64,000 nucleotides of DNA from Squalus acanthias (Eukaryota), in the NCBI GenBank assembly GCA_030390025.1, contig CM059431.1:136030001-136094000 (forward strand), read 5' to 3'. Of the stretch, positions 20,000 through 49,283 are shown one piece after another. The position numbers and the translations under genes were made by a program. The first letter of the stretch is position 1; each line of letters opens with the position of its first letter. The notes under the pieces are model-generated. The model did no database searches and was not told the origin of the DNA. It saw only the letters and a list, made by a program, of their open reading frames with translations.

Positions 20000-22620
20000 C
20001 ATAGAATCATAGAAGATAGGAGCAGGAGTAGGCCATTCGGCCCCTCTAGCCTGCTCCGCCATTCAATGCGATCATGGCTGATCATCCAAATTCAGTACCC
20101 TGTCCCTGCTTTCTCCCCATATCCCTTGATACCTTTAGCCTTAAGAAATATATCCAACTCCTTCTTGAATATATTTAATGAATTGGCCTCTACTGCCTTC
20201 TGTGGCAGAGAATTCCACAGGTTCACCACTCTCTGGGCGAAGAAATTCCTCCTCATTTCTGTCCTAAATGGCTTACCCCTTATCCTTAGGCTGTGAGCCC
20301 TGGTTCTGGACTCCCCGACCATCGGGAACATCCTTCCTGCATCTAGTTTGTCCTGTCCTGTCAGAATTTTATAAGTTTCAATGAGATCCCCTCTCATTCT
20401 TCTAAACTCCAGCGAGTATAAGCCCAATCGACCCAATCGCTCTTCATACGTCATTCCTGCCATCCCAGGTATCAGCCTTGTGAATCTTCGCTGAACTCCT
20501 TCCATGGCAAGAACATCCTTCCTCAGATAAGGCAACCAAAACTGCACACAGTACTCAAGGTGTGGTCTCACCAAGGCCCTGTACAACTGCAGCAAGACAT
20601 CCTTGTTCCAGTACTCAAACCCTCTCGCTATGAAGGCTAACATACCATTTGCCTTCTTAACCGCCTGCTGCACCTGCATGCTTACCTTCAGCAACTGGTG
20701 CACAAGGACACCCAGGTCTCGTTGCACTTCCCCTTCTCCCAATCTATTGCCATTCAGATAATAATCTGCCTTCCTGTTTTTGACACCAAAGTGGATAACC
20801 TCGCATTTATCCACGTTATATTGCATCTGCCATGCTTCTGCCCAATCACCCAACCTGTCCACATCATCCTGGAGTTTCTCGGCATCCTCCTCACAGCACA
20901 CACGCCCACCCAGCTTTGTGTCGTCTGCAAACTTGGAGATATTACATCTAGTTCCCTTGTCTAGATCATTAATATATATTGTGAATAGCTGGGGTCCAAG
21001 GACCGATCCCTGCGGTACCCCACTAGTCACTGCCTGCCACTCGGAAAAAGACCCGTTTATTCCAACTCTTTGCTTTCTGTCTGCCAACCAGTTCTCTATC
21101 CAAGTCAATACCTTGCCCCCAATCCCATGTGCCTTAACTTTACACGCTAATCTCTTATGCGGGACCTTATCAAAAGCCTTTTGGAAGTCCAAATACACCA
21201 CATCCACTGGTTCTCCCTTATCTATTTTACCAGTTACATCCTCAAAAAATTCCAGTAGATTAGTCAAGCATGATTTACCTTTTGTAAATCCATGTTGACT
21301 TTGTCCGATCCTGTCACTGTTTTCCAAGTGCTCAGCTATTACATATTTTATAATGGACTCTAGCATTTTCCCCACTACCGATATCAGGCTTACCGGTCTA
21401 TAATTCCCCGTTTTCTCTCTACCACCCTTTTTGAATAGTGGGGTAACATTAGCTACCCTCCAATCCATGGGTACTGTTCCAGATTCCATCGAATGTTGGA
21501 AGATGATCCGCAATGCATCTACTATTTCTAGGGCCACTTCCTTAAGTACCCTAGGATGTAGATTATCAGGCCCTGGGGATTTATCGGCCTTCAATCCCTT
21601 CAATTTTCCTAACACCATTTCCCTACAAATACTGATTTCTTTCAGTTCCTCCCTTTCATCAGACCCTATGTTCCCCAACATCTCTGGGAGGTTATTTGTG
21701 TCCTCCTTTGTGAAGACAGAACCAAAATATGTATTTAATTGGTCTGACATTTCTTTGTTCCCCATTATAAGTTCCCCTGATTCTGACTGCAAGGGACCTA
21801 TGCTTGATTTCACTAATCTTTTTCTCTTCACATATCTATAAAAGCTTTTACAGTCAGTTTTTATGTTCCCTGCAAGCTTACTCTCGTATTCTATTTTCCC
21901 CTTCTTAATTAATCCCTTTGTCCTCCTTTGTTGAATCTTAAACTGCTCCCAATCCTCAGGGTTACTGCTTTTTCTGGCCAATTTATATGCCCTCTCCTTG
22001 GATCTTATGCTATCCCTAATTTCCCTTGTTAGCCATGGTTGAGTCACCCTTTTTGTTTTATTCTTATGCCAAACTGGGATGAACAAATTCTGTAGTTCGT
22101 CCATGCGGTCTTTGAATGTTTGCCATTGTCTATCCACCGTCAACCCTTTGAGTGACATTCTTCAATCAATCCTACCCAACTCACACCTCATACCATCGTA
22201 GTTTCCTTTATTTAAATTCAGGACCCTAGTCTCTGAGTCAACTACTTCACTCTCCATCCTAATGAAGAATTCTATCATATTATGATTGTTCCGACCCAAG
22301 GGGCCTCACACAACAAGATTGCTAATTAATCCTTTCTCATTGCATAATACCCAGTCTAAGATGGCCTGATCTCTGGTTGGTTCCTCGACATATTGGTCCA
22401 GGAAACCATCCCGTAAACACTCCAGGAATTCCTCCTCCATAGTATTGTTACTAATTTGGTTAGCCCAATCTATATGTAGATTAAAGTCACCCATGATGAC
22501 TGCTGTGCCCTTATTGCACGCATCTCTAATTTCCCTTTTAATGCCATCCCCAACCTCCGCATTACTGTTTGGAGGTCTATATATCACTCCCACTAACGTT
22601 TTCTGCCCCTTGTTATTTCT
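20000..22620 (-). mobile_element. CR1 LINE, 5'-truncated, with a 688-aa open ORF2 segment (20092-22158)
   Basis: Partial endonuclease (YRPP..GDFN) plus a complete RT domain; catagaat tail. Confidence 0.95.
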
Positions 22621-22776
22621 CTGTTTGTGTTGTGTTCAGCTAATTACACAAGTGCTGTGCTAGTGACTGAATATTCCACTGTGCAGCAACATAGTTAAGG
22701 ACATTGCTGGATGGAACTCGTGTCTCAGGATTTGAACGTGAGAGAGATGTTTACCGATTTACATTCTTTCCTTCAG

Positions 22777-23325: not shown

Positions 23326-23471
23326 CTAGTTCGGCAATAAACTGTGACCCCATTTATTGATCAACTCTCTCTCAGTTCACACGCTGCAGCGTTTACTCAC
23401 TAGAGAGCGTTCTACTCTCTGAAACTCAGTTTTACCAGCATTGTTACAGACCTTTTACTATATTCAGACAA

Positions 23472-23870
23472 ATCTAATCCCACACTCATCCCTTACTCCC
23501 CATACCCTTCAATATCCCCCCCAGTCTAATCCCACTCTCCTGCTCACTTCCCGTACCCTTTAATATCCCACCCAGTCTAATCTCACTCTCCTGCTCACTA
23601 CCCATACCCTTTAATATCCCACCCAGTCTAATCTCACTCTCCTTCTCACTACCCATACCCTTTAATATCCCACCCAGTCTAATCTCACTCTCCCGCTCAC
23701 TCCCCGTACCCTTTAACATCCCACCCAGTCTAATCTCACTCTCCTGCTCACTACCCATACCCTTTAATATCCCACCCAGTCCAATCCCACTCTCCCCCTC
23801 ACTCCCCGTACCTTTTAATATCCCACCCAGTCTAATCCCACTCTCCTGCTCACTCCCTGTACCCTTTAAT
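23472..23870. repeat. 51-bp minisatellite, about 7-8 copies
   Basis: Unit ccctttaatatcccacccagtctaatctcactctcctgctcactacccata. Confidence 0.9.
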
Positions 23871-24754
23871 AATCCTTTTTTTCAAGAAACTATCTAATTT
23901 TTTTAGAAGAATTCATGGGCTCAGTTTGTGACAGAAAATTTCTCAGTCTAACCACCCTGTGTGAAGAAATATTTTTCTAAGCTCTCCTATAAGTTCTATT
24001 TGAGATCATTTTGAATTTCTATCCTCTCATTATCATCTGTCGACTAGCCAAATTGTCCATCATTATTCACCTTCTCCTGGAATCAAAGCCTCTGCCAGGT
24101 CAGCCCGAACCGTTCTCAGTCTTTGTGGAAAAAGCCCGAACAGAATTACAGAATCTTCCAGCACAGAAGGAGGTCATTCAGCCCATCGTGCCTGTGCATG
24201 TCTCCGAAAGAACGATCCAATTAGTCCCACTCCCTGTCCTTTCACATTTTTATTTTTCAAATATTTATCCATGACTCTCAAAAGCTGTTGTGCATTCTGC
24301 TTTAAGTATGGAGTGTGGTTAAACCTTAATCTCCCCAGGTCAGCCCCCGCCCTCCCCCTCCGCCCCAGCACCACCCCCTCCCCCGACTTTCCAAACCCCT
24401 GTATAACAGCACTAAGCCCTTGTATAAGAAGCCTCTCCCGGGTCCTCCTGCCTCCTGTGAATCTCGGGGTTCTTGGGCGCCGTCTCTTCTGTTGGAAGCG
24501 TGTTGGGGGCTGGAAATGTTTTGCACCTTCACTACAGATTGCCCAATCAATCTGGCAGAAAATGGCAACGGCACCTGCGGCCGTCCCGGGCCCACTAAAT
24601 GTAATGGGAGGAGGGCGAGGCGTTGGAGATTTTTCCGATTCCTGCACCAACGCCCCCCCGGGCAGTGCTGGGAAACCTCTGCAATTGGGACTCATTCCCT
24701 GTTTCCCACAAATCACGCTGCTAACGGCCATGTTTGGGATTTTTTTACTTACAG

Positions 24755-27136: not shown

Positions 27137-27654
27137 GTAAAACCCAGTTTGCTTTATCCACTGTGTGTGTCTTGCTCCATTCACAGTGACCCGAGTGTAT
27201 TTTACTGTATATTCAATATGTGTATGCTAGTTATAAAGTTTGGGTTGGCTGTAGATATTCTCGGCAGTGTTGGTCACTCCTGTAAGTGGTCTGAGCATCT
27301 TGCGTTCAGGAGTCTGCCCATACCACCCAATATTGAAGCAGCGATGGTGTAACGCAAGCATAATGTTAGGACCCCTTGTGATCAGAAGTGGATGGCGTGA
27401 CTCGCGTCTTTCAGTAGGTGGATTGAAAACACTTTAGTGAGATGAAGCCAGATATGAATCATTTAACTGCTTTATTTAAAAAAAATGAAAGGAGGAACTT
27501 GGATTTCTGTAGCGCTTTTCACAACCTAAGGCTGTCTCAAAGCTCTTTACAGTCAATTAAATATTTTTGCAGTGTAGTCACTGTTTTATATTAAAGTGAA
27601 CATACAAAATAATGGTTATGATGAAATATTTCTAACTTCATTTAACTTCAAACA

Positions 27655-28112
27655 CCAACACCCCCCCCACCCACTCCCCCCCCCCCACCCCACTCCCCCA
27701 CCCCACTCCCCCCCCCCCCACTCCCCCACCCCACTCCCCCCCTCCCCCCCCCACCCCACTCCTCCCCACTCCCCCCCCCACTCCCCCCCACTCCCCCCCC
27801 TCCCCCCCTCTCTCCCCCCCCACTCCCCCCTCCCCCCCCTCCCCCCCCTCCCCCCCCACTCCCCCCCCACTCCCCCCCCCACCCCACTCCCCCCCCCCAC
27901 CCCACTCCCCACCCCCCCCCCCCCCACCCCCCCACCCCCCCCCCACCCCCCCACCCCCCCAACCCCCCCCCACCCCCCCCCCCCCACCCCCCACCCCCCA
28001 CCCCCCCCACCCCCCCCACTCCCCCCCCACCCCACTCCCCACCCCCCCCCACCCCCCACCCCCCCCCCACCCCCCCCACCCCCCCCCACCCCCCCCCCAC
28101 CCCCCACCCCCC
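27655..28112. repeat. Poly-C-rich low-complexity tract (G-rich on the minus strand)
   Basis: Runs of C interrupted by a/t/act. Confidence 0.95.
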
Positions 28113-28538
28113 ACTGCCATTCATGAAGAAAAATAATAGTCCACACTGCCGTGCCCTGGGTTAGTGGGCTGACTAATGCTTCCTTTGGTCAGTCTGGCAT
28201 CGAAACAGACCAATACTTGGATGTCACTAGTCGCTCTCGGTTGTGCCTAGATCTTTCCTGCCTTTTCCTTGGTGCACCATTGTCATTGACTTTGCATGTT
28301 TTCCTTTTCTTTTTGTTATTCCTGAGTTTGGATTGTCCCTCGGACTTCTTCCCCATTTAGTGATTCACCAGTCAGTCTGTCAATAAAAGATGGAAAATGC
28401 TGGAAACACTGCAGGTCAGGCAGCATCTGTGGAGAGAGAAACAGAGTTAACAGGCTGGATTTTGTCAATGGGGAGCTTTTGGAGGCGGGACTCCCACTTG
28501 TCGGGTTTTAGTCCCGCCTCCATCGACTTGTGGCCAAC

Positions 28539-30186
28539 TGTAGAATTCGCAATTTATCGCGATTTTATTAATAAGGAGAAAACACAGAGTCTCGTTCAAA
28601 CAGCTTTTATTTCAGCAGAATGCGGTCAGGTTTTCTCAAAGTGGACACAAGCAGCCTGTAAAGTGCCCGCCGCACCTCGTGACAGAACATTCTAGACTTT
28701 TCGACAGGCAGACAAGATGGCGTTCCAATAAACATTTGTGCAAGATCGATTAAGATTCAGCACAGTGAAGATAATACACGAGACATTATGGGTTTGCAGT
28801 ATACACATAAATACTGAAATCGGTCTCCCAGGTACGAATGAAAGCTATTGTACCGAGTAATCAAGGGCCCATCCAAAAGACATTAATATGTAAAATCCCA
28901 ACGACTCTACGATGAGAGAGCCGTTAGCAGGTAGTTATACAAAACACTTGGAAGCCCCAAGACCCCTCCAGGGAGAACACCGACCGATTTAACAATGGGA
29001 GAAATATTAACAGGTACTCAGACAGTTACGAGTAGCCCCGAAACCCATTAAGAACGGAGATCACCCATACAAGACATTTGAGCGCCAAACCCAAACAAAA
29101 GAAAGGACATTAAGGTTGGGCGGGAAACGGAAGATTTTGTACTATAATTACAAGCTCCAACCGTCCATCGCTCTCTTATTCTCTTATCCGATCGACTCGT
29201 AACCTCGTGGCTGCTCCTGTGTTTTGACTCGTAGTCTGGTTCCTGCTTGCCTGGTGCCTCTTTGAAAAAGACTGTTGAACTTTCTGATCCGTTCGGATCT
29301 ACCTCGTGTCGCGTAACGAAGACCTATGTTGGTAACTGGCAGCGGAACCAAAGGCCCGAGATGAGATGAGATGAGATGAGATGAGATGAGAAGAGAGGAA
29401 GACCATACTCATCGCCACGGTCAGTAAATCCCGACCGCGCCTGTAGGTCGAATAGCCAAGTTTTCCTTGCCAGGAAGACTTCTTTGAACTTGCAAGAACG
29501 GATCATCACCGATGATATTGACTGGTCTGTGAAACCTGTTCGGAAAGTACCTGTTAAACCAACCAACACAGATCTTCATCACAGCAGACGGCCCAGCCTG
29601 CTAGCCGGAGCAGAAGCAAGTAAACAAGTGGGACCAGGAGATCTCCTGACCGACACGTGGGTGCTGCGGTGAAAAACATCCGATCAGCTATTCGGAATTT
29701 CTCCGAGTTATCACGAGTGGTGAGCATGAGTCTCGAAATCCTACGAATCTAGTTAGGACAGATATTGATAGGGGAGGGTTTAAGTATTAAGGATACTTGT
29801 AATGTGTGCCCCTATTTACGGTGTGTCGTTCGTTCCTCGTTTCCCTAAGATCAGCTATATAACTGCTTGTAAGATTGTACTGTCGTTAATCTGTGCTTAT
29901 GACATGTATTTCGTAATCTTAAGTATCATGCAATAAAGATTTTCCATTTCGTACCATTCAACCGAGTCTACATGAGTTTCATCTCCATTACTGCTCTCGC
30001 ATCTAAGTCCAGTGTCTAGAACCGTAAGGGCGAGTGATTCGAACCACTCACAGGTGTGTCTAGTGCTCCCAGACTGGCTGGAGACCAGAACAGGCAACAA
30101 GGCCTAAACCCGCACTGACATACAGGCTGCACAGAGCCGCGTGAATCTCACAGGCTGCGAGACACGCAGGGTCAGAATCCCTTACA
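28539..30186 (+). repeat. 5' LTR (1648 bp)
   Basis: tgtagaattc...cccttaca, a direct repeat of 39612-41258. Confidence 0.97.
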
Positions 30187-30190
30187 GAAA

Positions 30191-31999
30191 ATGGCGACCG
30201 CGGCAGGACACTGGCAGCGAGAGGGTAGTGTGTTAGACTTTGGAATGACTGTACGAAATGTTATGCAGGAAAAGATAGCAGATTATGTGTTCGGAAAGGT
30301 TAATCTAACCAAGAAATGGATAAGTGAATTGTTAGCGGATAAAAGCCCGCTAGAGGCAGCCGAAAGGTGGACAGATAGTAAAGAACATAAAAAGACACTC
30401 GAGAAAGCAGTCTGGCTTATGTGTTACAAAAGGCAGGTTCAGATTTCAAACCAGACCATTACAGCGCTAGTAGCTCGAATCAGTCATTTAGAGGGAGAAA
30501 TGGATGAGAAGGTTTCTGGAGGGGAAATGCTCATTAGGAATTTAAGTGCGTTGCACCAAGAACGCCAGGAAATCTCCAGTCACCATAAAACAAGGATAGA
30601 TTACCTCGAGTGCCAGGTCACTGAGGCAAAGTTAAATGAGAGCAGGTTAAAGGAAAGATGTGCCCGCCAAGCTGCCCAGATAAGAACTCAGGAAGAGAGC
30701 TTAACGGGGGTTAGGGCGGCATATAAGTTGGCCCTTGAGGATAAGTTTCAGGGAGCCGATCATAGCGCCTGCCAAAAAGAGATAGAGCACCTCAAAAAGG
30801 CCGTGAACAAAGCGCACGGCATGGTGTGCCTTATCAGTCCGTCAGCACACCAGCCGCTAGTAAGTGAGAAGTTTAAGAAATCCCCACCAAGTAAAGCAGA
30901 GGAAGTAGTAGCCACTGCGCCCTCCGCGCCACCCAGCTACTCGGAAACCTGGGTTAGGGAGGAAGCAATGGAAGAAACGAAAGAGCCCATTGAGAAAGAA
31001 GTGGAAAAGGGACCGTTGTATCCAGTAACGGGTATTAAAAGGGGCCCAAACAGAAACGGTGGGGAAGAACCAGGGGATCTCCTCGGACAGCTTGTGTTGC
31101 CTCACAGCTCACACCAGCTGAGAGCTATGATAAATCACGTACGGAAGCTGACCGAGTCAGACGACCCTTCCGTACATTTCAGAGAAGTTGAGCAAGCCGC
31201 AGCCATTAACGGCTGCGATGATGGGGAAACAGCAAAAATGCTGCTGTTCTCATTAGACAGCTCGGTCCTTCAGTGTCTCTCAGGCGAGAGCAAGAGGGGA
31301 ACCAAGACTTATGAGGCATTAAAGAATGAGGTCCTGGAAGTGTTGGGGGCGAACGATGAAGGTCCGTTTGCTAGAGTGGGACAGACAGTGCAGATGGAGG
31401 GAGAACCCCCGAAGGTTTTTGCCGACAGGCTGTGGCCAGTATATGAGCGCAGCTGTCTAGGTGCGGCCGAGCGCGAAGATGTGGAAGGCGCCGGTTTAGC
31501 TCATTGGCTTAGGTGCATAATAGCCAACAGTTTACCAGCCGTCAGAGAGCAGGCAAAAGCATGGTTTGATCCCAATGACCCCAACATTACGGAAGAGTCG
31601 GTCTTGAATCGACTCACGTTAGGATATCGCAATATAAGGGGTATGGCAACACGTCCCCTTAAGGGAAAAGTACATGAGGTACGACCCGCAGCCCCGTATC
31701 AAAGAGAGTGGCATCAGGAGGGTAATCGCGCCCCACAGGCAAGTAATGCTTGTTACGGGTGTGGGAAGACAGGGCACTGGCGCAAGCATTGCAGGAACCC
31801 TTGGAAAGATTCCAAGGATAAAAATCCCGCGGTCCGAGCCCAGGCGCCTGTCCCGGCTAGGGAAGCTAATGCACCCACCCCTCCCGACGACCTCGAAGTA
31901 GTGTTAGGAGCCATGCGCAATCTATTGAGTGCACATGGAAAGGTGGCGGTCGCAACCGGCCCCGTAGGTGCCGCAGGACCGTCTAATAGTACCCCATGA
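30191..31999 (+). CDS. gag: Gag polyprotein (coiled-coil N-terminus, late domains, capsid, one CCHC knuckle)
   Basis: 602-aa ORF; PSAPPSY; CYGCGKTGHWRKHC. The true start could be 30191 or 30245. Confidence 0.92.
   Translation: MATAAGHWQREGSVLDFGMTVRNVMQEKIADYVFGKVNLTKKWISELLADKSPLEAAERWTDSKEHKKTLEKAVWLMCYKRQVQISNQTITALVARISHLEGEMDEKVSGGEMLIRNLSALHQERQEISSHHKTRIDYLECQVTEAKLNESRLKERCARQAAQIRTQEESLTGVRAAYKLALEDKFQGADHSACQKEIEHLKKAVNKAHGMVCLISPSAHQPLVSEKFKKSPPSKAEEVVATAPSAPPSYSETWVREEAMEETKEPIEKEVEKGPLYPVTGIKRGPNRNGGEEPGDLLGQLVLPHSSHQLRAMINHVRKLTESDDPSVHFREVEQAAAINGCDDGETAKMLLFSLDSSVLQCLSGESKRGTKTYEALKNEVLEVLGANDEGPFARVGQTVQMEGEPPKVFADRLWPVYERSCLGAAEREDVEGAGLAHWLRCIIANSLPAVREQAKAWFDPNDPNITEESVLNRLTLGYRNIRGMATRPLKGKVHEVRPAAPYQREWHQEGNRAPQASNACYGCGKTGHWRKHCRNPWKDSKDKNPAVRAQAPVPAREANAPTPPDDLEVVLGAMRNLLSAHGKVAVATGPVGAAGPSNSTP
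30192..30209 (+). promoter_or_regulatory. Primer-binding site, tRNA-Arg(TCG)-like
   Basis: TGGCGACCGCGGCAGGAC is the complement of the vertebrate tRNA-Arg(TCG) 3' end ...GTCCTGCCGCGGTCGCCA, as recalled from the human sequence. Confidence 0.8.
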
Positions 32000-34900
32000 C
32001 TAGAACCCGCGCAGCCCGTCTACCTGTGTCCGCTTAGCTATGATGCGTGGAAGCGACCTTTGGTGGAGATGGAGGTAGAGAAACAGAGGGGTAGTTATTT
32101 GTTGGACACGGGAGCTTCTTGCACCATAATCCATACAGATAGCCCTTTTGACTCGCCGCTATCTACCAGGGTCCCATTCACGTTAGCGGGGTTCACAGGA
32201 AAAGAACAGGCTGGCGCGTTCTCCCTTCCGCTATCCATTCGTTTGGGAGCACTTCACCTTAAGTGGAAGTGTATACTGATGGAATGGCAGGAGGGGGGTG
32301 GAAGAGGTATTCTCGGGTCTGATCTTCTATCGGGACACGGGATCCTCGTGGACCTCAGAAATCACTGTCTCTGGGGGGCTAAGGGTGAAAAAGGCGAGGT
32401 AGTAGTGATTCCGGGGGAGGAAGAAACAGGGGTCCTGTGTACCGTACAGCCATCCGGAGGCTACGACCTCAGGCTTATGGTCGCAGATGTCCCAACGGAC
32501 ATGCAAACGTACGTGTCAGATAATATGCACGCGTTTGCAACCCACAAGCACGATTGTGGGAGGGTTATCGGGTTTGAGGTCAGCGTAGATGGGGACCCCA
32601 TGACCCGACCCCAAAAGCAGTATAACTTCCCCAAAGAAGCAGAACCCGATATGGAAACAGCAATGTCCTCTTTGGTGCAGCAGGGCGTGTTGAGGCCGAT
32701 AGCCACACACGTGAACTCCCCATTATGGCCGGTTAGGAAGCCGGATAATTCGTGGAGAGCCACGGTGGACTACAGAGTCCTTAACAGTAACATTCCCGCC
32801 TGCGCGCCCACGGTAGCAGCAGTTGCTGACCTGATAGGGAGCATCCCAGCGTCCGCGACCACGTTCACGGTGCTGGATATCTCGAACGGTTTTTGGTCCA
32901 TCCCGCTGAGGCGAGAGGACCAGTACAAGTTTGCCTTTACTTTCAAAGGACAACAGTACACATGGAACTGTCTGCCACAGGGTTTCCACAATAGCCCCAG
33001 TATTTTCCATCAGTGTATGGCAGGAAGTTTAAAGGAGTTTAGTCAGCCCAATCAGATAGTGCAGTACGTGGATGATTTGCTCCTATTTACGGACTCAAGG
33101 GAGGAGCATGGACCACTACTGGACGAGTTATTGGAGCTGCTAGCGAGAAAGGGTTTTAAAATAAATCCTAAGAAAGCACGTATCGGTCAGCGGGAAGTAA
33201 AATTCCTGGGACTGACCATACGCGCTGGGGAAAGAGCCATAGACAAAGCAAGGAGGGAGTCGGTGCAAGAATTACCGATTCCCAACAACATAAGGGGTGT
33301 GAGGTCCTTCTTGGGACTGACCGGTTACTGCAGGGACTTTATCGAAGACTATGCGGCCACAGCAGCGCCGCTCCTCCGACTCCTCCATAAGGGGGTGGAG
33401 TGGTCTTGGGACGAGGGCTGCCAAGCAGCCTTCGAGAAGTTAAAAAGGGATCTGCAGACCGCGCCAGCCTTAGGGGCCATAGATGGGGGTAAGGAGTTTT
33501 TCCTGGAGGTAGCTGCCAGCGGAGACAGCTTGAGCGCTGTGCTGCTCCAAGAGCGTCACGGCAAGCTGAGGCCGGTTGTCTATTCATCCAGGGTGTTAAC
33601 GGATGTGGAGAGAAGTTTCTCCAATTGCGAAAGGCACCTTTTAGCCACGCATTGGGCTGTGAAAAGATCAGCGATCTTCACAGGGCTCTCTCCCATCACT
33701 CTCCTCACACATCACACACCAACTAAGATGCTTCTGGATGGGAGGATTAAAGATGGGACCGTAAGCAGCGCGCGCATTGCGCGTTGGACCCTTCTTCTCT
33801 CCCAGTTGGATCTTAGAGTAAAAGGTCTTTGCGAGCCCAGGCTTGCGGCCAATTTGGTATACCCCGGTACAGCCCACCGGTGTTCGGTGGAAGGGGTGTG
33901 GGACGTCAACATAGGTTTACGGGCCGGGATACATCCCACTGGGCGCGAGATTTATGTTGATGGGTCTAGCACAGTATCTGCTGGCGAACGACTCACGGGG
34001 TGTGGAGTTTATGACCCTGCGGCAGACCTTGCCCTGGCGATCAAGCTCCCTAGCACCATGAGCGCGCAGCAGGCTGAGCTGTCTGCCGTGGTGTACGTTG
34101 TTACCCACCCAGACATTTTCCCAACCCCATACACGATTTGCTCGGACAGTATGTTCACCTGCAATTCGTGTACGGAATACCTGGCCATTTGGTCCCGCCG
34201 TGGATACACCTCCGCGGACGGGCGACCTTTAACGGTGAAGCCCTTGCTGGAAAAGATCTTAGCAGCAGCAGTAGGGGAGGAAGGAGAGATTTTCATCCAT
34301 AAGGTGAAAGCTCACTCCTCCACAGAGCCCCGTGGGGAGGGCAACCAGCAGGCGGATGCGCTAGCCAGGGAAGGTGCCCGCAACGGCATTTTCTGGGACC
34401 CCTATGGGACCAGACCCATAGCAGCGATCCGAGGCAGGGACGGGAATCCCGGGAACACCAGGGTAGCATTGCCCCTAGACCTTAAGACCGTCCAAACCCA
34501 GGATCCCGCCCTAAAAGCAGTCCTAAAAACCATTGCTGAGGGGAGGCAGGTAGAAGGTCCGTACAGTACGGCAACCCTCTCAGTTAAGGAAGGCATGCTG
34601 TTCCGCGAGGAGCAGTGGGTTGTGCCGCAGCAGCACAGGAGGGAATTCCTCCAGTTGGCTCACGAGGGACCAGGGGCAGGGCACCCCGGGCCCGAGGTTA
34701 CCTGGCAACGGGTAGAGCAAGCGGGATGGTGGCCAGGGCTCAGGGAACAAGTCCGCGAGTTCTGTGCAAACTGTCTTGTGTGCGCTGCAAACAACCCAGA
34801 CCCCCAGAAAAGGAAGGTGCCCATGGGACACGTAAGAAGGGTAGAGGGACCATGGCAGTCGATACAGATCGACTATATAGGACCCCTGCCCACCACCCAG

Positions 34901-36520
34901 GGAGGTTATAAATACTGCCTCGTCTTGGTGGATGTGTTTTCCAAGTGGGTGGAAGCCTTCCCCTGTCGAACAGCTACGGCACTGGGTACAGCAAAAATCT
35001 TGGTCCGGGAAGTGTTCTCGCGGTGGGGACTTCCCCGTTTTGTGGAGTCAGACCAAGGGAGTCATTTCACCGGCCAGGTGATGCAGAACACCCTCATGCT
35101 TTTGGGCATTGAAGGGAAGTGGCACGTAGCACACAATCCCCAGTCATCCGGGATTGTTGAACGCATGAACCGGACCCTGAAGGAGAAATTGAGGAAAGAG
35201 ACTAGGAACTCGCCCCAAAAATGGGCGGAAGTTCTGCCTTTAGTCCTCATGGGGGTCCGGGCCAGTCAGTCAAAAAGTACGGGGTACTCCCCGCACGAGG
35301 TGATGACTGGGAGGCTCATGCGAACCCCCACCCATGTGCTAGCGCCGGTGCTCACTGAGGGTCAGCTCCAAGAGATAAGCAGGGACAAGTTCGCCCAGAC
35401 TCTCTTGGAGCGCCTGAAGCAGGTTTATGAGCAGGCGGCTGGGAACATGGGAAGGCAGCATCAGGGCAATCGCTTGTTGCTGGAACCCCGCAAAACGCGG
35501 GAGTGGGAAGTAGGAGACCAGGTCATGGTCAGAAACTACGCCAGAGTAGGGAGTCTGGAACCACTGTATATGGGACCCTACAACATTGTAGACAAGGCGA
35601 GTCCCATGGTATACGCCGTAAAAGTACCTCGGCGCACTAAGTGGTTCCACGTAAACCAATGCAAACTGTACAAGCCAGGTGCGCAAGGGAAAACCACAGG
35701 GGTAAACCCCGCCAGTGGGGAAGCACAGCCCCAGGTAGGACCACAAGGCACACAGGCAGGCAAAGCAGCTTGCATCAGGGGAGGGGACATCCTGGAAGAT
35801 CATGAAGCATTTTTGTGGGGTTGGGAGTCAGATGAGGGAGAATTCCGGGAACTCGAGTCAGATGAGGATAGTGATGAAGACGAGTGGTTTTTGGGGAACG
35901 GTCCCATTTTAGGTATAGGGAGGATACGGGCTGCAGATAGAGATCCACACAGGGTGGACACACAAGCTGCAGGTCCCGAAGACAGGAGGGAGGAGCTAGG
36001 GGAGGCGGGGCCAGCCGCTGTGGGAGCACAGGGAGTGACGGTGAGGACCCCAGAGACAGAGCCGCCCGCTTTGAACGTCCCGTCCTCGGGGGAGGCAGAG
36101 ATCACGAGTGAAGGGCCGCCTGCTGGGCCGAGCAGGGCGGAGCCACAAACTGCGAGCCCCGAGGTTAGGGAGGCGGAGTCAGCGGAGGCGGAGCCAGCGA
36201 CTGTGGTGGAACCCCAGGTCGTCCCGATGGAAGTCTCGGAACCCGGTCCGTCAGTCACGGAACCCCCGCCCATGGCAACTCCCCGTAGGTCAAGTAGAGA
36301 ACCCCAGCCCAGGAGGATGTGGTCATGTCCCCAGACTGCCCCAAGGCGTAGACTTAAGGTTAAGGCAACCCAGATACAGCCCGGCCCCATCGCAGCAGCA
36401 ACAGGCTGCGGCAGATCAGAGGAAGGAATCAGTGCAGCAACAGGCTGCGGCAGATCAAAGGGAAGGGTCAGTGCCCTCCCACCGTCGGGAAGAGCTCGCA
36501 GCAGCCTTCTCAGAATTTAA
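32000..36520 (+). CDS. pol: Pol: PR-RT-tether(degenerate RNase H)-RNase H-integrase plus C-terminal extension
   Basis: The frame is open from directly after the gag stop. LLDTGAS; LPQGF..YVDD; LEVAAS (degenerate RH); YVDGS..AQQAEL..SDS..GNQQAD (second RH); HHCC, IDY..SDQG..VER; GPY. Confidence 0.95.
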   Translation, partial: LEPAQPVYLCPLSYDAWKRPLVEMEVEKQRGSYLLDTGASCTIIHTDSPFDSPLSTRVPFTLAGFTGKEQAGAFSLPLSIRLGALHLKWKCILMEWQEGGGRGILGSDLLSGHGILVDLRNHCLWGAKGEKGEVVVIPGEEETGVLCTVQPSGGYDLRLMVADVPTDMQTYVSDNMHAFATHKHDCGRVIGFEVSVDGDPMTRPQKQYNFPKEAEPDMETAMSSLVQQGVLRPIATHVNSPLWPVRKPDNSWRATVDYRVLNSNIPACAPTVAAVADLIGSIPASATTFTVLDISNGFWSIPLRREDQYKFAFTFKGQQYTWNCLPQGFHNSPSIFHQCMAGSLKEFSQPNQIVQYVDDLLLFTDSREEHGPLLDELLELLARKGFKINPKKARIGQREVKFLGLTIRAGERAIDKARRESVQELPIPNNIRGVRSFLGLTGYCRDFIEDYAATAAPLLRLLHKGVEWSWDEGCQAAFEKLKRDLQTAPALGAIDGGKEFFLEVAASGDSLSAVLLQERHGKLRPVVYSSRVLTDVERSFSNCERHLLATHWAVKRSAIFTGLSPITLLTHHTPTKMLLDGRIKDGTVSSARIARWTLLLSQLDLRVKGLCEPRLAANLVYPGTAHRCSVEGVWDVNIGLRAGIHPTGREIYVDGSSTVSAGERLTGCGVYDPAADLALAIKLPSTMSAQQAELSAVVYVVTHPDIFPTPYTICSDSMFTCNSCTEYLAIWSRRGYTSADGRPLTVKPLLEKILAAAVGEEGEIFIHKVKAHSSTEPRGEGNQQADALAREGARNGIFWDPYGTRPIAAIRGRDGNPGNTRVALPLDLKTVQTQDPALKAVLKTIAEGRQVEGPYSTATLSVKEGMLFREEQWVVPQQHRREFLQLAHEGPGAGHPGPEVTWQRVEQAGWWPGLREQVREFCANCLVCAANNPDPQKRKVPMGHVRRVEGPWQSIQIDYIGPLPTTQGGYKYCLVLVDVFSKWVEAFPCRTATALGTAKILVREVFSRWGLPRFVESDQGSHFTGQVMQNTLMLLGIEGKWHVAHNPQSSGIVERMNRTLKEKLRKETRNSPQKWAEVLPLVLMGVRASQSKSTGYSPHEVMTGRLMRTPTHVLAPVLTEGQLQEISRDKFAQTLLERLKQVYEQAAGNMGRQHQGNRLLLEPRKTREWEVGDQVMVRNYARVGSLEPLYMGPYNIVDKASPMVYAVKVPRRTKWFHVNQCKLYKPGAQGKTTGVNPASGEAQPQVGPQGTQAGKAACIRGGDILEDHEAFLWGWESDEGEFRELESDEDSDEDEWFLGNGPILGIGRIRAADRDPHRVDTQAAGPEDRREELGEAGPAAVGAQGVTVRTPETEPPALNVPSSGEAEITSEGPPAGPSRAEPQTASPEVREAESAEAEPATVVEPQVVPMEVSEPGPSVTEPPPMATPRRSSREPQPRRMWSCPQTAPRRRLKVKATQIQPGPIAAATGCGRSEEGISAATGCGRSKGRVSALPPSGRARSSLLRI

Positions 36521-36806
36521 AGGGGCCGCCCTGAGAACGGGCGGCACTGTATAGTAATAAGTTTTAAGTTTTAAGTTCATAGTTCAAGGTTAAGTTTATA
36601 GTTTTAATAAGGTTAAGATTGTAGTGTTTTTAACAGAAAACGATAAAATGATGGGAGCTTTAAAAATAGGTTTAGTTAAAGTTTATTCAGCGAACGTTGA
36701 AGTTTACGTGAGGCGAGGTCAGGGGACCCGCTCACCCTTCACAAAAGCCAGAGACTCTTGCGAGGCTGGCTACCTCATTCTATCTGATCACAGGAACCAA
36801 GGAAGG

Positions 36807-39158
36807 ATGGAACGAATTCTAGTATTGCTCGCGGCAATCGGATGTGGATTGGCCTATCGAGGCCGCACCAAGGATGTCGTGGTGTTTGGATGTTCCGGGG
36901 ACACGGCCCCCATCGCGGTGGATGGGACCGGAAGACGGGAGGCAGAGGAGACCAGCACCTATTTCCACAAGGGAAGGTGGCCAGGATGGCTGGGAACGAA
37001 CTCAACGGAGTATTCTAGCACATCGGGGTTTGCCTACAAAGAGACTTCTTTAATGTGCCCCAAAGTAAGGATCATCGCACCCAGGATCAGCGTCACCGTC
37101 GGCAAACGGATTTGTTTGACTTGTAGTGGGAATGTCCCATTGAGCCGATGGTGGTGGCTGCGAAAGCTGAGCAAAACTATGAGGAACTCTTCGGTCGAGT
37201 GGGAACGACTGGGTAATAATACCCATCGGACAATTACGGGGACAAACGGACAAGTGAAAGTCTGTTGGGACAAATGGTGGGAACCGGACGAGGGAATTTA
37301 TGTATGCATGTGGGGGTCAAAATACCCTTGCCCCAAAGGCATATCCATATTTTTCATTAATCAGTGGCAGGATAACGGACAGGGGATGAGGTGGGATGCG
37401 AGCACCAGGGGGTGCGGAGCCCCATACTCTTCGATCCCGGTAAATGCCACTGAGCTCATTACGCGCCCACGCAAAGCCCCGCCCACGATTCCGGTGGTTC
37501 TAGCTGAGGAAGAAGGGTGCCCTAAAACTAGTAAGGGACCCGGGAATGGTTTGGTACTGGTCCCCACAGACCAGATACTATTTCAGGGGGTACATTACGC
37601 GGTGGCCTCGGTGATTTTAAATCTCACCGAGGTGCGGTTACCAGAGTGGTGCCCCAAAAAGACGGAACAGTTGTATCAGGTCCTGTTGACCAAGATGTTC
37701 AGACAATTTTACGAATTCGATTTCGCGGAAATTGATAAAACAAGTTTGTACACCGCACCACAGGAAGTTTTGGATCAAGTAGGGAGGCAAAGAAGGGGTT
37801 TGGTGAACGATGCGTTCACTGCTTTTAACACGGGTACATCTGTGGTCAACGCTCTAGACAGTGTGGAGCTGCAGACCCAGATTAATGGTCTAAAAACGCA
37901 ATTAAAAGACATTCTAACAGATGAGAATAAAGTGGTAGGGTCGGGTCTACACGAGGACCAAGCCATGACTCTCCATTTAAAGGAAATTATAGCAGAGCTG
38001 GAGAAACATGCAAAGACGGTAAATGCCCTGATTAGGGAAGATCGGAATGCATCCGATCAAGCTGCGCAGAACGAGGTGTGCGTGCTTTACGGGGCGTGGT
38101 TACTGGGCGAGGGCCGCAGTAATTTGGAGGATTTAAAACAAGGTTTGGTCCCGTCCTGGATAAGTAACAAACACCTGCGGGCGCTCCACCCTTTTCAGAA
38201 CGCATTAAGTCCGTGTCAGCTCAGGCTAGCTTCAGAAGCATACCCAGTCCCCGTGGACTGCGGACGATCAAACCATACCATTATGGGTATAGTTTTACGC
38301 ATGCCGGTTTTGGGCGACACAGCAAAGCCCGCCCCGGTGTATCGGGTAGAGAACATTGGTGTCATTCAGGGGGGAGCCCACATTCGTTATGCAGCGGTTC
38401 CACCTTACGTCATCCGCTGGGAGCAAACGATGACAGGTACAGATCTCTCTGGTTGTCGTGGCAGGGGAGCACACATAATACTGTGCCCCCAGCACTTGAA
38501 TGCCTTTTTAACACCACAGTGCGGGTTCAGAACGATTGGCGCCAAGTCCATGAATTGTACCATGGAGGCAATGGCACAAGATCATGTGCCTCCGCAGGTA
38601 GCATACATCGGGGGTGGAACATATTGTGTTACCACTGCAGCGCAACACTACCAGCATGGAAACCGTAGCCGGTGTCCGGTGAGTGACAGCAGTTTCTGTT
38701 TTAAACCCAGGGCGGAAGTTCAAGTAGCACAACAGCGAATTATCCCAATCCCTGAACCATCCACTGTTCATCTCACAGTAAAAGAGAATTTCACCGACTT
38801 GCAACGATTCGTCGCGCATTTCGGATACCTCATTCCCCCTCTCCCTGAACACCTCACCAAGCTTTTAAAAGCCGTCGCGGTGTCACAGAAACATTTTTAC
38901 ACATTAGAACAGAAAACTGTCGAAATAGGAACAGACATTCTGGATATAGTAGTTCCACCGTGGTGGAATCTGTTCACCAATATTGAAGTGCCTTCATGGA
39001 TCAGAATAGCCTCCCACATTTTAGTCGTATGTCAAGTGTTTATTGTAGTGTACCTATTGGTCGTACATTGTAAAAGAGACAAACGCCTCACCAAGCATGA
39101 AAACACGGGAGAGTGGCGAGAACGTTACGTGCGCGTGCACGATGAAAGCACCGTGTAA
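36807..39158 (+). CDS. env: Envelope glycoprotein: signal peptide, Ig-like domain, class I fusion protein of paramyxo/pneumovirus F type, TM anchor
   Basis: ORF open from 36624; likely start MERILVLLAAIGCGLA at 36807, after a candidate splice acceptor (…gatcacag, 36793). RQRR|GLVNDAFTAFNTG cleavage site and fusion peptide, heptad repeat, Cys-rich region, TM IASHILVVCQVFIVVYLLVV. Confidence 0.88.
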   Translation: MERILVLLAAIGCGLAYRGRTKDVVVFGCSGDTAPIAVDGTGRREAEETSTYFHKGRWPGWLGTNSTEYSSTSGFAYKETSLMCPKVRIIAPRISVTVGKRICLTCSGNVPLSRWWWLRKLSKTMRNSSVEWERLGNNTHRTITGTNGQVKVCWDKWWEPDEGIYVCMWGSKYPCPKGISIFFINQWQDNGQGMRWDASTRGCGAPYSSIPVNATELITRPRKAPPTIPVVLAEEEGCPKTSKGPGNGLVLVPTDQILFQGVHYAVASVILNLTEVRLPEWCPKKTEQLYQVLLTKMFRQFYEFDFAEIDKTSLYTAPQEVLDQVGRQRRGLVNDAFTAFNTGTSVVNALDSVELQTQINGLKTQLKDILTDENKVVGSGLHEDQAMTLHLKEIIAELEKHAKTVNALIREDRNASDQAAQNEVCVLYGAWLLGEGRSNLEDLKQGLVPSWISNKHLRALHPFQNALSPCQLRLASEAYPVPVDCGRSNHTIMGIVLRMPVLGDTAKPAPVYRVENIGVIQGGAHIRYAAVPPYVIRWEQTMTGTDLSGCRGRGAHIILCPQHLNAFLTPQCGFRTIGAKSMNCTMEAMAQDHVPPQVAYIGGGTYCVTTAAQHYQHGNRSRCPVSDSSFCFKPRAEVQVAQQRIIPIPEPSTVHLTVKENFTDLQRFVAHFGYLIPPLPEHLTKLLKAVAVSQKHFYTLEQKTVEIGTDILDIVVPPWWNLFTNIEVPSWIRIASHILVVCQVFIVVYLLVVHCKRDKRLTKHENTGEWRERYVRVHDESTV

Positions 39159-39599
39159 TCGGAAAATGGCGTCATTCCCGCTCGCCACGTGCGCCGCGGA
39201 AGTTTGTACTCGATCATGATTTTCAAAGATTGTAAATACGTTTGGGAACTCGACATGTGTTAAGAGTTGGTGTTGATTATTTTTGGTGATGGTGTTGTAG
39301 TTAAAAATGATTGTTTGGTTTTGGGTTTTGTTTTTCCTTTCCCTGAATAAAAGATGAATATACAGGTGATACGAGAGGCATCGGCCTGGTTACGCCGGGA
39401 AGGAAAACAAGTGGTGTAAGTTTAAGGGCAAATAAAGGCCCACGGTGATATAAAATGTAATTTTCTTGGGAAATAAGGACGACACAGAGACCCTAGCTAG
39501 GTTAAAATTATGGGATTAATTTGCTGGATTCGGAGAGAAATCGAGATAATATTGCTCACCACTATGATTTTTGATACGATAAGCGGAGTTATTCGCATC

Positions 39600-39611
39600 A
39601 ACAGGAGGGAC
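39600..39611 (+). promoter_or_regulatory. Polypurine tract
   Basis: aacaggagggac immediately before the 3' LTR TG. Confidence 0.75.
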
Positions 39612-41258
39612 TGTAGAATTCGCAATTTATCGCGATTTTATTAATAAGGAGAAAACACAGAGTCACACAGTTCAAACAGCTTTTATTTCAGCAGAATGCG
39701 GTCAGGTTTTCTCAAAGTGGACACAAGCAGCCTGTAAAGTGCCCGCCGCACCTCGTGACAGAACATTCTAGACTTTTCGACAGGCAGACAAGATGGCGTT
39801 CCAATAAACATTTGTGCAAGATCGATTAAGATTCAGCACAGTGAAGATAATACACGAGACATTATGGGTTTGCAGTATACACATAAATACTGAAATCGGT
39901 CTCCCAGGTACGAATGAAAGCTATTGTACCGAGTAATCAAGGGCCCATCCAAAAGACATTAATATGTAAAATCCCAACGACTCTACGATGAGAGAGCCGT
40001 TAGCAGGTAGTTATACAAAACACTTGGAAGCCCCAAGACCCCTCCAGGGAGAACACCGACCGATTTAACAATGGGAGAAATATTAACAGGTACTCAGACA
40101 GTTACGAGTAGCCCCGAAACCCATTAAGAACGGAGATCACCCATACAAGACATTTGAGCGCCAAACCCAAACAAAAGAAAGGACATTAAGGTTGGGCGGG
40201 AAACGGAAGATTTTGTACTATAATTACAAGCTCCAACCGTCCATCGCTCTCTTATTCTCTTATCCGATCGACTCGTAACCTCGTGGCTGCTCCTGTGTTT
40301 TGACTCGTAGTCTGGTTCCTGCTTGCCTGGTGCCTCTTTGAAAAAGACTGTTGAACTTTCTGATCCGTTCGGATCTACCTCGTGTCGCGTAACGAAGACC
40401 TATGTTGGTAACTGGCAGCGGAACCAAAGGCCCGAGATGAGATGAGATGAGATGAGATGAGAAGAGAGGAAGACCATACTCATCGCCACGGTCAGTAAAT
40501 CCCGACCGCGCCTGTAGGTCGAATAGCCAAGTTTTCCTTGCCAGGAAGACTTCTTTGAACTTGCAAGAACGGATCATCACCGATGATATTGACTGGTCTG
40601 TGAAACCTGTTCGGAAAAGTACCTGTTAAACCAACCAACACAGATCTTCATCACAGCAGACGGCCCAGCCTGCTAGCCGGAGCAGAAGCAAGTAAACAAG
40701 TGGGACCAGGAGATCTCCTGACCGACACGTGGGTGCTGCGGTGAAAAACATCCGATCAGCTATTCGGAATTTCTCCGAGTTATCACGAGTGGTGAGCATG
40801 AGTCTCGAAATCCTACGAATCTAGTTAGGACAGATATTGATAGGGGAGGGTTTAAGTATTAAGGATACTTGTAATGTGTGCCCCTATTTACGGTGTGTCG
40901 TTCGTTCCTCGTTTCCCTAAGATCAGCTATATAACTGCTTGTAAGATTGTACTGTCGTTAATCTGTGCTTATGACATGTATTTCGTAATCTTAAGTATCA
41001 TGCAATAAAGATTTTCCATTTCGTACCATTCAACCGAGTCTACATGAGTTTCATCTCCATTACTGCTCTCGCATCTAAGTCCAGTGTCTAGAACCGTAAG
41101 GGCGAGTGATTCGAACCACTCACAGGTGTGTCTAGTGCTCCCAGACTGGCTGGAGACCAGAACAGGCAACAAGGCCTAAACCCGCACTGACATACAGGCT
41201 GCACAGAGCCGCGTGAATCTCACAGGCTGCGAGACACGCAGAGTCAGAATCCCTTACA
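39612..41258 (+). repeat. 3' LTR (1647 bp)
   Basis: Copy of the 5' LTR; four differences seen by eye. Confidence 0.97.
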
Positions 41259-42729
41259 CCAACCCACGCTATTTTCCCTTGATTGACCTTGTTAAGCCCG
41301 CCCAGCGGGCCAAGCAGGCCAATTAAGGGAAAGCCGGTTACAAGTGACGTCAGCGAGTGACGTTTCATCTGTCAAGAGCTTTTGACAGATGAATTGTCAT
41401 TGTTTGATGGCTCTGTGAAGCTGTCAATCAGGCTGAGTTAGAGAGCCCTCCTGAGCAGAAAGCAAAAGGCTGCAGCTTTTGACAGTTCAGTGGCCATTCT
41501 GCTTTCTGTGCCGGTGAGCTGAGGGACTCCGAGACCTGAAGGGAGGAAGCCTGCAGGAAGAAGTAAAGGTAAGTAAAACTTATTAAAACATTTTAAACAC
41601 ACCTCACACACTTACCTCTTCACACGTGCACCCATCACTCACCTGCACACCGGACATCTCGGCCCCTCCGACCCCCGCAGACCCACGGCTCGCCTCGCTG
41701 ACCATGGCGAGGTTTGGAGCCGTCGGGAAGCCCACACTTCAGGGCTGAAAATAGGTATTAGCCAAAAAAAAACCTGTTAAAATTGGCACTAATCCCCTTC
41801 CCGCCTCAGGGAGGCGGCTCCCAGCGCGGGTCGGGTACCCGCCTCCTGGGAAGATGGCACGGAGGCGGGTTGGGGCGGGATGGGTACCCGCCCCCAGATT
41901 CTGCCATTTTCCCGGCAGTCCCGCCTCCCCAGGGCTGGCAAAATTTCCCCCAACGTTTCAGGTCGATGACCTTTCGGCTGCACTGAAAGATGCTGGAGAT
42001 GAACAGCTTTTAAGCAAATGCAGAGCAGGGGAAAAGCTGCGACGTGTTTCTCCTCTTCCCCATCAGATTCCCGGAGACACCCCATCCTGGACTCAAATTA
42101 ATCTATCAGAAAATAGATGTGGATGTTTCTTGGCAGTCTGAAACAAGATAAACAGCACATTGTCAATACCTGGTTGATTAACAACTCTTTCCTCGGTGGC
42201 TGCTGGATACGACTGAAATCCAACGTGAACCCATGTAAATTTAAACACCACTTAATGTAACTCACTCCCAAATCCTTTCAGTGGAAGAATAGTCAAAAAT
42301 CCTAAGATGTGATGGTGTTGCTATTCTGTTCAGTGTGTCTATATTTCTCTTGTCAGAATATGTGTTACATCCCCTCTCTCCCGCCCCCGCCTCTCCACTC
42401 ATCACATAGCTGGGAATATTTGAACTGATGAACTAATTAGTGACATGAGGTATATCATCGGGTTCACATGTTAATAGTTGCATTGGTATTATAGCTCCCT
42501 TTGTAACATTATCGTAAAATGCCTGTTGATGGGATTTGAAGCAATATTTGATTGTGGGGCTTCAGTGACTTCATTACAGGTTATTTAATTAGGTTCTAAC
42601 AATGTTCAAAGTCTGGTGCAGTAATTGTCGGAATTAATTCTCTGTGAATTGTGATTTTGTTATGTTTGTATTTGTGTGATCTTTCCTGTCACTGGTGCTT
42701 TCCTCCAATATTGTTTGCTCGTGTTTCAG

Positions 42730-46560: not shown

Positions 46561-46579
46561 ACTCCAGACATGAACACCC

Positions 46580-48979: not shown

Positions 48980-49283
48980 GGGACACTGTGATCCATTAAC
49001 CCTGTCGGTGGGACACTGTGATCCATTAACCCTGTCGGTGGGACACTGTGATCCATTAACCCTGTCGGTGGGACACTGTGATCCATTAACCCTGTCGGTG
49101 GGACACTGTGATCCATTAACCCTGTCGGTGGGACACTGTGATCCATTAACCCTGTCGGTGGGACACTGTGATCCATTAACCCTGTCGGTGGGACACTGTG
49201 ATCCATTAACCCTGTCGGTGGGACAATGTGATCCATTAACCCTGTCGGTTTGACAATGTGATCCATTAACCCTGTCGGTTTGA
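48980..49283. repeat. 30-bp minisatellite
   Basis: Unit gggacactgtgatccattaaccctgtcggt, about 10 copies. Confidence 0.95.

What the first reader, a model, noticed from the sequence alone, without database searches (positions are those of the whole stretch)
31997..32059. gag and pol joined by a UGA-CUAG stop-codon readthrough signal
Seen: gag ends TGA (31997-31999), followed by CTA G and 20 sense codons (LEPAQPVYLCPLSYDAWKRP) in frame with pol, leading into the protease. Known: UGA-CUA(G) is the leaky context used by alphaviruses and by vertebrate genes such as AQP4, LDHB and MDH1, whereas gammaretroviruses read through UAG using a pseudoknot. Inference: Gag-Pol is made by UGA readthrough.
Basis: partly seen in the sequence, partly recalled or inferred. 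Interest (0 to 1): 0.7.

Follow-up and report, generated by a model that had tools for sequence, protein, structure and literature searches.

The report
Retroviral UGA readthrough with long hairpin
A young retrovirus integrated in a shark- or ray-type genome appears to make its enzymes by letting ribosomes slip past a leaky UGA stop codon followed by a predicted 220-base RNA hairpin, a signal known from alphaviruses rather than retroviruses; this is predicted from sequence, not measured.

Summary
Observation confirmed. TGA (31997-31999) plus CTAG ends a 602-codon gag in frame with a 1506-codon pro-pol, inside a complete provirus (28539-41258, LTRs 99.3% identical). The stop is not a fresh mutation: Gag relatives from three other clusters end within one residue of the same place, and conserved protease residues lie upstream of the first pol ATG, so translation must cross the stop region. 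UGA-CUAG plus an extended stem is the alphavirus (type II) design, not the gammaretroviral UAG plus pseudoknot. The element is a basal, snakehead-retrovirus-grade retrovirus, not a lokiretrovirus, yet 7 of 24 published lokiretrovirus consensus sequences also end gag in an in-frame TGA-CTA, unremarked by their authors. UGA between gag and pol is already reported for a few fish and frog retroviruses and yeast retrotransposons, so this is a new variant of a known mechanism. Readthrough was not measured, the DNA context in close relatives and covariation of the stem could not be tested.

The parts
28534..28538 (+). 5-bp target-site duplication, left copy
   Evidence: same 5 bases at 41259-41263
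28539..30186 (+). 5' LTR (TGTA...TACA, 1648 bp)
   Evidence: 99.3% identical to the 3' LTR; 2 substitutions and 3 indels
30192..30209 (+). primer-binding site, 5 nt behind the LTR, overlapping the gag ATG
   Evidence: begins TGG right after the LTR; assignment to tRNA-Arg(UCG) is recalled, not tested
30191..31999 (+). gag, 602 codons, one CCHC zinc knuckle, ends at the UGA
   Evidence: 52% and 44% identical to P0001 and P0002
31997..32003 (+). UGA-CUAG stop context (type II readthrough motif)
   Evidence: motif class from PMC13517186 and PMC3159437
32002..32222 (+). predicted extended rod-like RNA stem-loop, 84 pairs (12 G-U)
   Evidence: -98 kcal/mol, z -6.2, 0 of 200 shuffles; best of 131 windows; 0 of 500 in two codon-preserving controls. 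Prediction only, no covariation test
32000..36520 (+). pro-pol, 1506 codons, same frame as gag; first ATG at 32069 lies inside the protease fold; catalytic DTG at 32105-32113
36807..39158 (+). env, 783 codons, RQRR cleavage site and C-terminal membrane segment; candidate splice acceptor at 36792-36793
   Evidence: acceptor ranked 5 of 373 YAG sites by pyrimidine content
39612..41258 (+). 3' LTR, preceded by a short purine tract
41259..41263 (+). 5-bp target-site duplication, right copy

Best explanation
The locus is a recently integrated endogenous retrovirus of the basal, snakehead-retrovirus (SnRV) grade. On its unspliced RNA most ribosomes stop at the UGA and release Gag; a minority decode the UGA with a near-cognate tRNA and continue into protease-RT-RNase H-integrase, giving Gag-Pol at a set low ratio. 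The leak is set by two elements: the CUAG behind the stop and a 220-nt stem-loop whose accessible base lies about 12-16 nt from the U of the stop, where alphavirus stimulatory stems begin. Shown: frame, context, conserved Gag end, protease residues before the first ATG, predicted fold and its statistics. Inferred: readthrough itself (about 0.88) and stimulation by the stem (about 0.65 given readthrough).
For: Gag relatives of 3 other 90% clusters (P0001 with members P0004/P0005, P0002, P0127 with P0275/P0276) end 12-13 residues after the same C-terminal motif as the window's Gag (12). None of the 20 hits with a capsid-region match among the 149 new proteins is longer than 628 aa. The Pfam protease match begins at residue 17, before Met24, and the L-x-P/S-L...RP-x-V stretch upstream of that Met recurs in SnRV and two other relatives. 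Stem-loop; opposite strand weaker (-81.6, z -3.1); mean pair probability 0.89 in a 900-nt context; -87 kcal/mol remains with the first 12 nt held open. SnRV and gammaretroviruses show the same layout with UAG-G and no long stem (z -0.7, -1.2, +1.1 over 225 nt). UGACUAG alone gives at least about 1.3% readthrough and alphavirus stems raise it 3- to 14-fold (PMC13517186, PMC3159437).
Against: No measurement of readthrough. The stop's DNA context could not be read in any close relative (proteins only; the variant table showed 40 of 472 rows). No covariation test of the stem: of five listed variant rows inside it two keep pairing (wobble to Watson-Crick), one is at an unpaired base, and three single-contig changes at 32059-32060 would break predicted pairs. 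A distant coelacanth protein (P0008) runs from a Gag-like part into Pol without a stop, and two lokiretrovirus consensus sequences have a sense codon or no stop.
Confidence: 0.8

Rival explanations
1. Readthrough is real, but the hairpin does something else (shielding the unspliced RNA from nonsense-mediated decay as the Rous sarcoma virus stability element does, or export or packaging), and CUAG alone sets the leak.
For: 220 nt is longer than the 126-177 nt alphavirus stems listed in PMC13517186; that review says a structure is only conditionally required for UGACUA. The RSV precedent is recalled, not read.
Against: The stem's 5' arm starts at the stop to within a few bases and the window starting there is the strongest of 131, the geometry of readthrough stimulators.
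Confidence: 0.3
2. Pol comes from a spliced RNA that uses the AG of CTAG (32002-32003) as a 3' splice site and so skips the stop, or from a foamy-like separate pol mRNA.
For: CTAG holds a YAG, a branch-like CTAAT lies about 17 nt upstream, and foamy viruses use a separate pol start (PMC8278194).
Against: The site ranks 49 of 373 YAG sites, has a competing AG at 31988, and would be buried in the stem; the env acceptor ranks 5. None of 9 joints in four runs has GT..AG ends or lands here (weak, no positive control). Three lokiretrovirus junctions read TGA-CTA-A, keeping the codon but not the AG. A reason for an exact in-frame gag-pol register would be lacking.
Confidence: 0.06
3. Pol is made by re-initiation or internal initiation at ATG 32069 or a near-cognate codon behind the stop.
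For: ATG 32069 has a purine at -3 and G at +4; gene callers start the nearest relative there (P0006).
Against: A protein from there lacks the conserved N-terminal protease strand, the ATG lies inside the stem, and several relatives have no Met at that place.
Confidence: 0.03
4. The TGA is a recent nonsense mutation in a single gag-pol frame and CTAG is chance.
For: Fused frames exist in distant relatives (P0008; Loki-Pfl, Loki-Str).
Against: Gag relatives at 44-52% identity end at the same place; no longer fused Gag relative was found (weak); all other frames of this young copy are open.
Confidence: 0.02
5. The UGA is recoded as selenocysteine.
For: UGA followed by a stem-loop also occurs in some selenoprotein mRNAs (PMC3159437).
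Against: No SECIS family among the 4 Rfam matches up to E 1 over the provirus; the codon sits in a variable linker, not an active site.
Confidence: 0.01

Closest known systems
Alphavirus opal readthrough (Sindbis, ONNV, CHIKV: UGA-CUA plus extended stem-loop; Beier-Grimm type II)
   Same: UGA-CUA(G) context, polymerase downstream of the stop, extended stem beginning about +9 to +16 (PMC13517186, PMC3159437).
   Different: Here a retroviral gag-pro junction; stem predicted as a near-continuous 220-nt rod; unmeasured.
Snakehead retrovirus (SnRV) and SnRV-like ERVs, incl. elephant-shark CmiERV lineage I (PMC4422223)
   Same: gag-stop-pro-pol in one frame; closest named RT (44% over 257 residues); grouping not rejected (p-AU 0.23).
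   Different: SnRV has UAG-GGC and no long stem; Gag and Env show no significant tblastn match to it; a clade with SnRV is not shown.
Fish and frog retroviruses with UGA at gag-pro (SSSV UGAAGA, ZFERV UGACGA, RMEV UGAAGU; XtERV-S TGA)
   Same: UGA between gag and pol, readthrough assumed (PMC13517186, PMC8278194).
   Different: The three listed hexamers are not UGACUA, and no downstream structure is described in the passages read; the XtERV-S context was not visible to me.
Lokiretroviruses (PMC7947760)
   Same: 7 of 24 consensus sequences show an in-frame TGA-CTA(G/A) before the protease.
   Different: RT lacks the Loki CPFGY motif, 35% to the Loki-type P0028, grouping rejected (p-AU 0.002).
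Gammaretrovirus readthrough (MoMLV)
   Same: Single in-frame stop between nucleocapsid and protease.
   Different: UAG-G plus compact pseudoknot, Asp 27 codons after the stop; the window lies outside the gamma/epsilon clade.
Fission-yeast Ty3/gypsy elements Tj1, Tcry1, Tosmo1-3
   Same: In-frame TGA followed by CTA or CTG between gag and pol, read as type II-like readthrough (PMC10085805).
   Different: Env-less fungal retrotransposons; shows that this signal can arise independently in retroelements.

Membership tests
Type II stop-codon readthrough site | UGA followed by CUA or CGG | tested here: met
   definition from PMC13517186
Type II stop-codon readthrough site | In-frame downstream coding region that has no other route to translation | tested here: met
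   1506 open codons; protease homology starts before the first ATG; splicing not fully excluded
Type II stop-codon readthrough site | Stop position conserved in relatives | tested here: met
   Gag ends within one residue in 3 other clusters
Type II stop-codon readthrough site | Stop identity and CUAG conserved in close relatives | tested here: inconclusive
   variant table cut at 40 of 472 rows, none in 31997-32003; no DNA of close relatives obtained
Type II stop-codon readthrough site | Extended 3' stem-loop (predicted) | tested here: met
Type II stop-codon readthrough site | Stem supported by compensatory changes | tested here: inconclusive
   only five variant rows, mixed
Type II stop-codon readthrough site | Measured readthrough | not testable with these tools
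   needs reporter, proteomics or ribosome profiling
Retroviridae provirus | [quoted passage not shown] | tested here: met
   RT inside the retroviral side of the tree at 100/98
Lokiretrovirus | RT groups with Loki lineage; CPFGY motif | tested here: not met
   p-AU 0.002 with the one Loki-type row P0028; motif absent
SnRV-like clade | RT forms one clade with SnRV | tested here: inconclusive
   unresolved basal grade; not rejected, p-AU 0.23; no foamy or ERV-L rows in the tree
Gamma/epsilonretrovirus readthrough (type III) | UAG-G context and RT in gamma/epsilon clade | tested here: not met

The most novel reading that the evidence does not exclude
UGA-CUA readthrough with a 3' stem is the ancestral way of making Gag-Pol at the root of retroviruses: it survives in lokiretroviruses (the sister lineage) and in this basal cartilaginous-fish lineage, and the UAG-pseudoknot, frameshifting and spliced-pol strategies are later replacements. 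The alternative is convergence, which fungal retrotransposons show to be possible.
Probability: 0.15. Interest if true: 0.75.

Novelty: new variant of a known kind. Interest (0 to 1): 0.52.

Why it matters
Retroviral readthrough is described as UAG plus pseudoknot, with a few fish and frog UGA cases whose cis-elements are unknown (PMC13517186). This locus supplies a concrete, testable cassette: an alphavirus-type UGA-CUAG with an unusually long and strong predicted stem, in a basal retrovirus. The same hexamer at lokiretrovirus junctions suggests how that lineage makes Pol, which its describing paper does not address, and bears on which Gag-Pol strategy is oldest. It also means that annotation of such elements as separate or broken gag and pol genes may be wrong.

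Tried and rejected
No whole genome is held for this window, so paralogous junctions could not be listed. Viral and metagenome scans gave no close relative: none; 49 mammalian gammaretrovirus-type loci, of which 25 show a TAG-G junction before the protease; 13 viral loci. No RNA holder is listed on record; the RNA-like runs laid are guesses and say nothing on expression. could neither confirm nor exclude variation at the stop (40 of 472 rows) and had no positive control for splicing. My first guess, a lokiretrovirus, was rejected. Short folding windows (60-150 nt) show nothing. Frameshifting rejected: same frame, no slippery site at the junction. Env could not be classified: no Pfam hit, only weak Ig-like PDB hits (E 0.4-0.7), Atlas 0.84 to an unnamed chordate cluster, single-sequence model pLDDT 36, so no fold search was run. 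No TGACTAG in the elephant-shark ERV supplement and the two TGACTAA places are not junctions. Rfam has no family for the stem. Earlier-findings searches by exact words and by sequence found nothing.
Full report
Observation. The sequence at 31997-32006 is TGA CTAG AAC and the next 20 codons translate as quoted. The stop closes a frame of 602 codons from ATG 30191 with one CCHC knuckle and is followed in the same frame by 1506 open codons holding protease, RT, tether, RNase H and integrase. Only 7 of 2339 TGA triplets in the window are followed by CTAG. No slippery heptamer lies at the junction.

The element. LTRs at 28539-30186 and 39612-41258 are 99.3% identical (2 substitutions, 3 indels), end in TGTA...TACA and are flanked by a 5-bp duplication; a primer-binding site follows 5 nt behind the LTR; env is a 783-codon open frame. 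Two substitutions in about 1645 sites give roughly 0.3-3 million years with the two rates quoted in PMC4422223, a very loose figure. The named Gag relatives come from a skate and a catshark, so the host is inferred to be a cartilaginous fish. Contigs of four runs from three coded organisms cover all 30 bins of the gag-pro region, with hundreds to thousands of contigs per run, so this is a multi-copy family.

Placement. In an RT tree of 51 rows (window, 45 of the 120 proteins listed, 5 of the 13 viral loci; no foamy or ERV-L rows available) the window lies on the retroviral side (100/98), outside the gamma/epsilon clade, in an unresolved basal grade with amphibian and coelacanth Pol proteins and near L050. 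L050 is SnRV: its RT matches the SnRV row of PMC7947760 read by eye and its junction is the UAG-GGC given in PMC13517186. RT identity is 44% to SnRV, 38% to a gammaretrovirus, 35% to the Loki-type P0028. Grouping with P0028 is rejected (p-AU 0.002), grouping with SnRV is neither rejected nor shown (p-AU 0.23).

Is the stop real and old? Gag relatives from three other 90% clusters, P0001 (52%, with members P0004 and P0005), P0002 (44%) and P0127 (with P0275 and P0276), end 12, 13 and 13 residues after the same C-terminal motif after which the window's Gag has 12; P0003 and P0126 are truncated forms and were not counted. Of the 149 new proteins listed by the profile search, 20 match the capsid region and none is longer than 628 aa; a search of longer proteins found nothing (weak by the tool's own warning). 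Against: the distant coelacanth model P0008 runs from a Gag-like part into Pol with a sense codon at about this place. These are proteins, so the stop's identity and context in close relatives remain unread; the read-laying table showed 40 of 472 variant rows, none in 31997-32003.

Must the ribosome cross the stop region? The first pol ATG (32069) is codon 24, twelve codons before the catalytic Asp. The Pfam protease match begins at residue 17 and the RP-x-V strand and an upstream L-x-P/S-L stretch recur in SnRV and two other relatives. SnRV and gammaretroviruses have the same layout, with the Asp 32 and 27 codons after their UAG against 36 here. Splicing onto the AG of CTAG is the main alternative: the site ranks 49 of 373 by a crude pyrimidine score with a competing AG 14 nt upstream, against 5 of 373 for the env acceptor, and none of 9 joints has GT..AG ends or lands there, though that test lacked a positive control.

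The hairpin. Folding 32000-32150 gives nothing unusual (z -1.3). Among eight windows tried, extending to 200-250 nt revealed a rod-like stem-loop pairing 32002 with 32222. For 32000-32225 the energy is -98 kcal/mol, z -6.2, 0 of 200 shuffles; the opposite strand gives -81.6, z -3.1. In a fixed scan of 131 windows of 225 nt across the provirus the one starting at 32000 is strongest (z -6.8; next -4.2; median -1.0; 20 shuffles each). Two controls that keep the protein sequence give z -5.3 and -4.9, 0 of 500 each; 72 of 84 pairs keep probability above 0.8 in a 900-nt context; -87 kcal/mol remains with the first 12 bases held open. SnRV and three other viral junctions show no such long stem (z -0.7, -1.2, +1.1, -0.8 at 225 nt). 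Variation is too thin to test it: at 32035 and 32169 most contigs carry a letter that makes a wobble pair Watson-Crick, 32052 is unpaired, and three single-contig changes at 32059-32060 would break predicted pairs. The structure is therefore a strong prediction without covariation support.

Lokiretrovirus junctions. The main text of PMC7947760 has no mention of readthrough, frameshift or stop codon. In its supplement (first 300 of 318 pages held), read by eye, 7 of 24 consensus sequences have TGA-CTA in frame with the protease: Ofa, Cne, Pyo, Sau with CTAG and Dcl, Lro, Bsp with CTAA. For six the authors' own Gag ends at that stop; for Cne I saw no Gag annotation; in Bsp the authors' pol frame is offset by a later shift in the consensus. 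Tfu has X-L-S in the authors' translation, Pfl a sense R-L-S, Str no stop, Npa an ambiguous residue then Q; Ape and Lch begin at or inside pol; 11 were not inspected, and string searches miss motifs split by line ends. The CTAA cases keep the Leu codon but not the AG, which favours a readthrough signal over a splice site.

Mechanism. Most ribosomes release Gag at the UGA; a minority insert a residue (Arg, Cys or Trp by recalled precedent) and make Gag-Pol. UGACUAG alone supports at least about 1.3% readthrough and alphavirus stems starting at +9 to +16 raise it 3- to 14-fold (PMC13517186, PMC3159437); the accessible base of this stem lies at about +12 to +16. Readthrough is inferred at about 0.88, a stimulatory role of the stem at about 0.65 given readthrough; protection from decay, export or packaging are open alternatives for the stem.

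What is known. UGA at gag-pro is listed for SSSV, ZFERV and RMEV with other contexts (PMC13517186) and for XtERV-S (PMC8278194); TGA-CTA/CTG separates gag and pol in fission-yeast retrotransposons (PMC10085805). I found no report of UGA-CUAG or an extended stem at a retroviral gag-pol junction, nor of readthrough in lokiretroviruses, in searches (40 of 1560 listed, none with the Loki term) and 87; the library lacks most subscription papers, and figures and bioRxiv supplements were not visible. Papers as seen: PMC7947760 parts 1-2 of 4, word search and supplement passages; PMC13517186 abstract, outline and passages; PMC3159437 passages and Discussion; PMC4422223 part 1 of 2 and a supplement search; PMC8278194, PMC10085805, PMC10435555, PMC8310308, PMC12193657, PMC12440569 and 10.1101/2024.03.25.586437 passages; PMC9040795 a word search with no hits. 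Recalled, from no call: the tRNA-Arg(UCG) assignment, the RSV stability element, the residues inserted at UGA, the likeness of Env to paramyxovirus F, and AQP4 and LDHB as UGA-CUAG genes (MDH1 and OPRL1 appear).

Verdict. A real feature and a new variant of a known mechanism: retroviral Gag-Pol readthrough using an alphavirus-type signal. Interest 0.52; the ancestral-mechanism reading has probability about 0.15 and would merit 0.75.

Noticed in passing
window:30187-30209: The gag ATG (30191) overlaps the first bases of the primer-binding site, only 5 nt behind the LTR, so the start of Gag is encoded by the PBS; the skate relative P0001 begins with the same MAT..GHWQ pattern.
   Followed up: partly
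window:36807-39158: Env has an N-terminal region with weak likeness to Ig domains (antibody light chains, JAM-A; E 0.4-0.7) and a TM part that by recall resembles F-type fusion proteins; no family could be assigned.
   Followed up: partly
window:35700-36520: Pol carries a tail of about 270 acidic, proline-rich, low-complexity residues after integrase; the nearest Pol relatives align only to about residue 1225.
   Followed up: no
PMC7947760 supplement, Loki-Ofa, -Cne, -Pyo, -Sau, -Bsp junctions: By eye each has complementary stretches within about 70 nt behind the TGA-CTA, with different sequences, hinting at a shorter conserved stem; not computed.
   Followed up: no
window:28539-30186: The LTRs are long (1648 bp); a donor-like site lies at about 30022 in U5, upstream of the PBS, an arrangement noted for spumaviruses and XtERV-S.
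   Followed up: no
P0008: A coelacanth protein named NYNRIN-like joins a Gag-like N-terminus to SnRV-grade Pol without a stop, with Gln-Gly where SnRV has UAG-GGC; may be a sense variant or a spliced gene model.
   Followed up: partly
window:24725-26446 and repeats at 4300-4990, 12800-14570, 20000-22630, 43700-44260, 58700-59360: A 573-codon CR1-like LINE RT frame with several related LINE/SINE copies on both strands, plus tandem arrays at 1-560, 23440-23920, 27600-28130, 46540-47000, 48920-49340 and 52065-52214.
   Followed up: no
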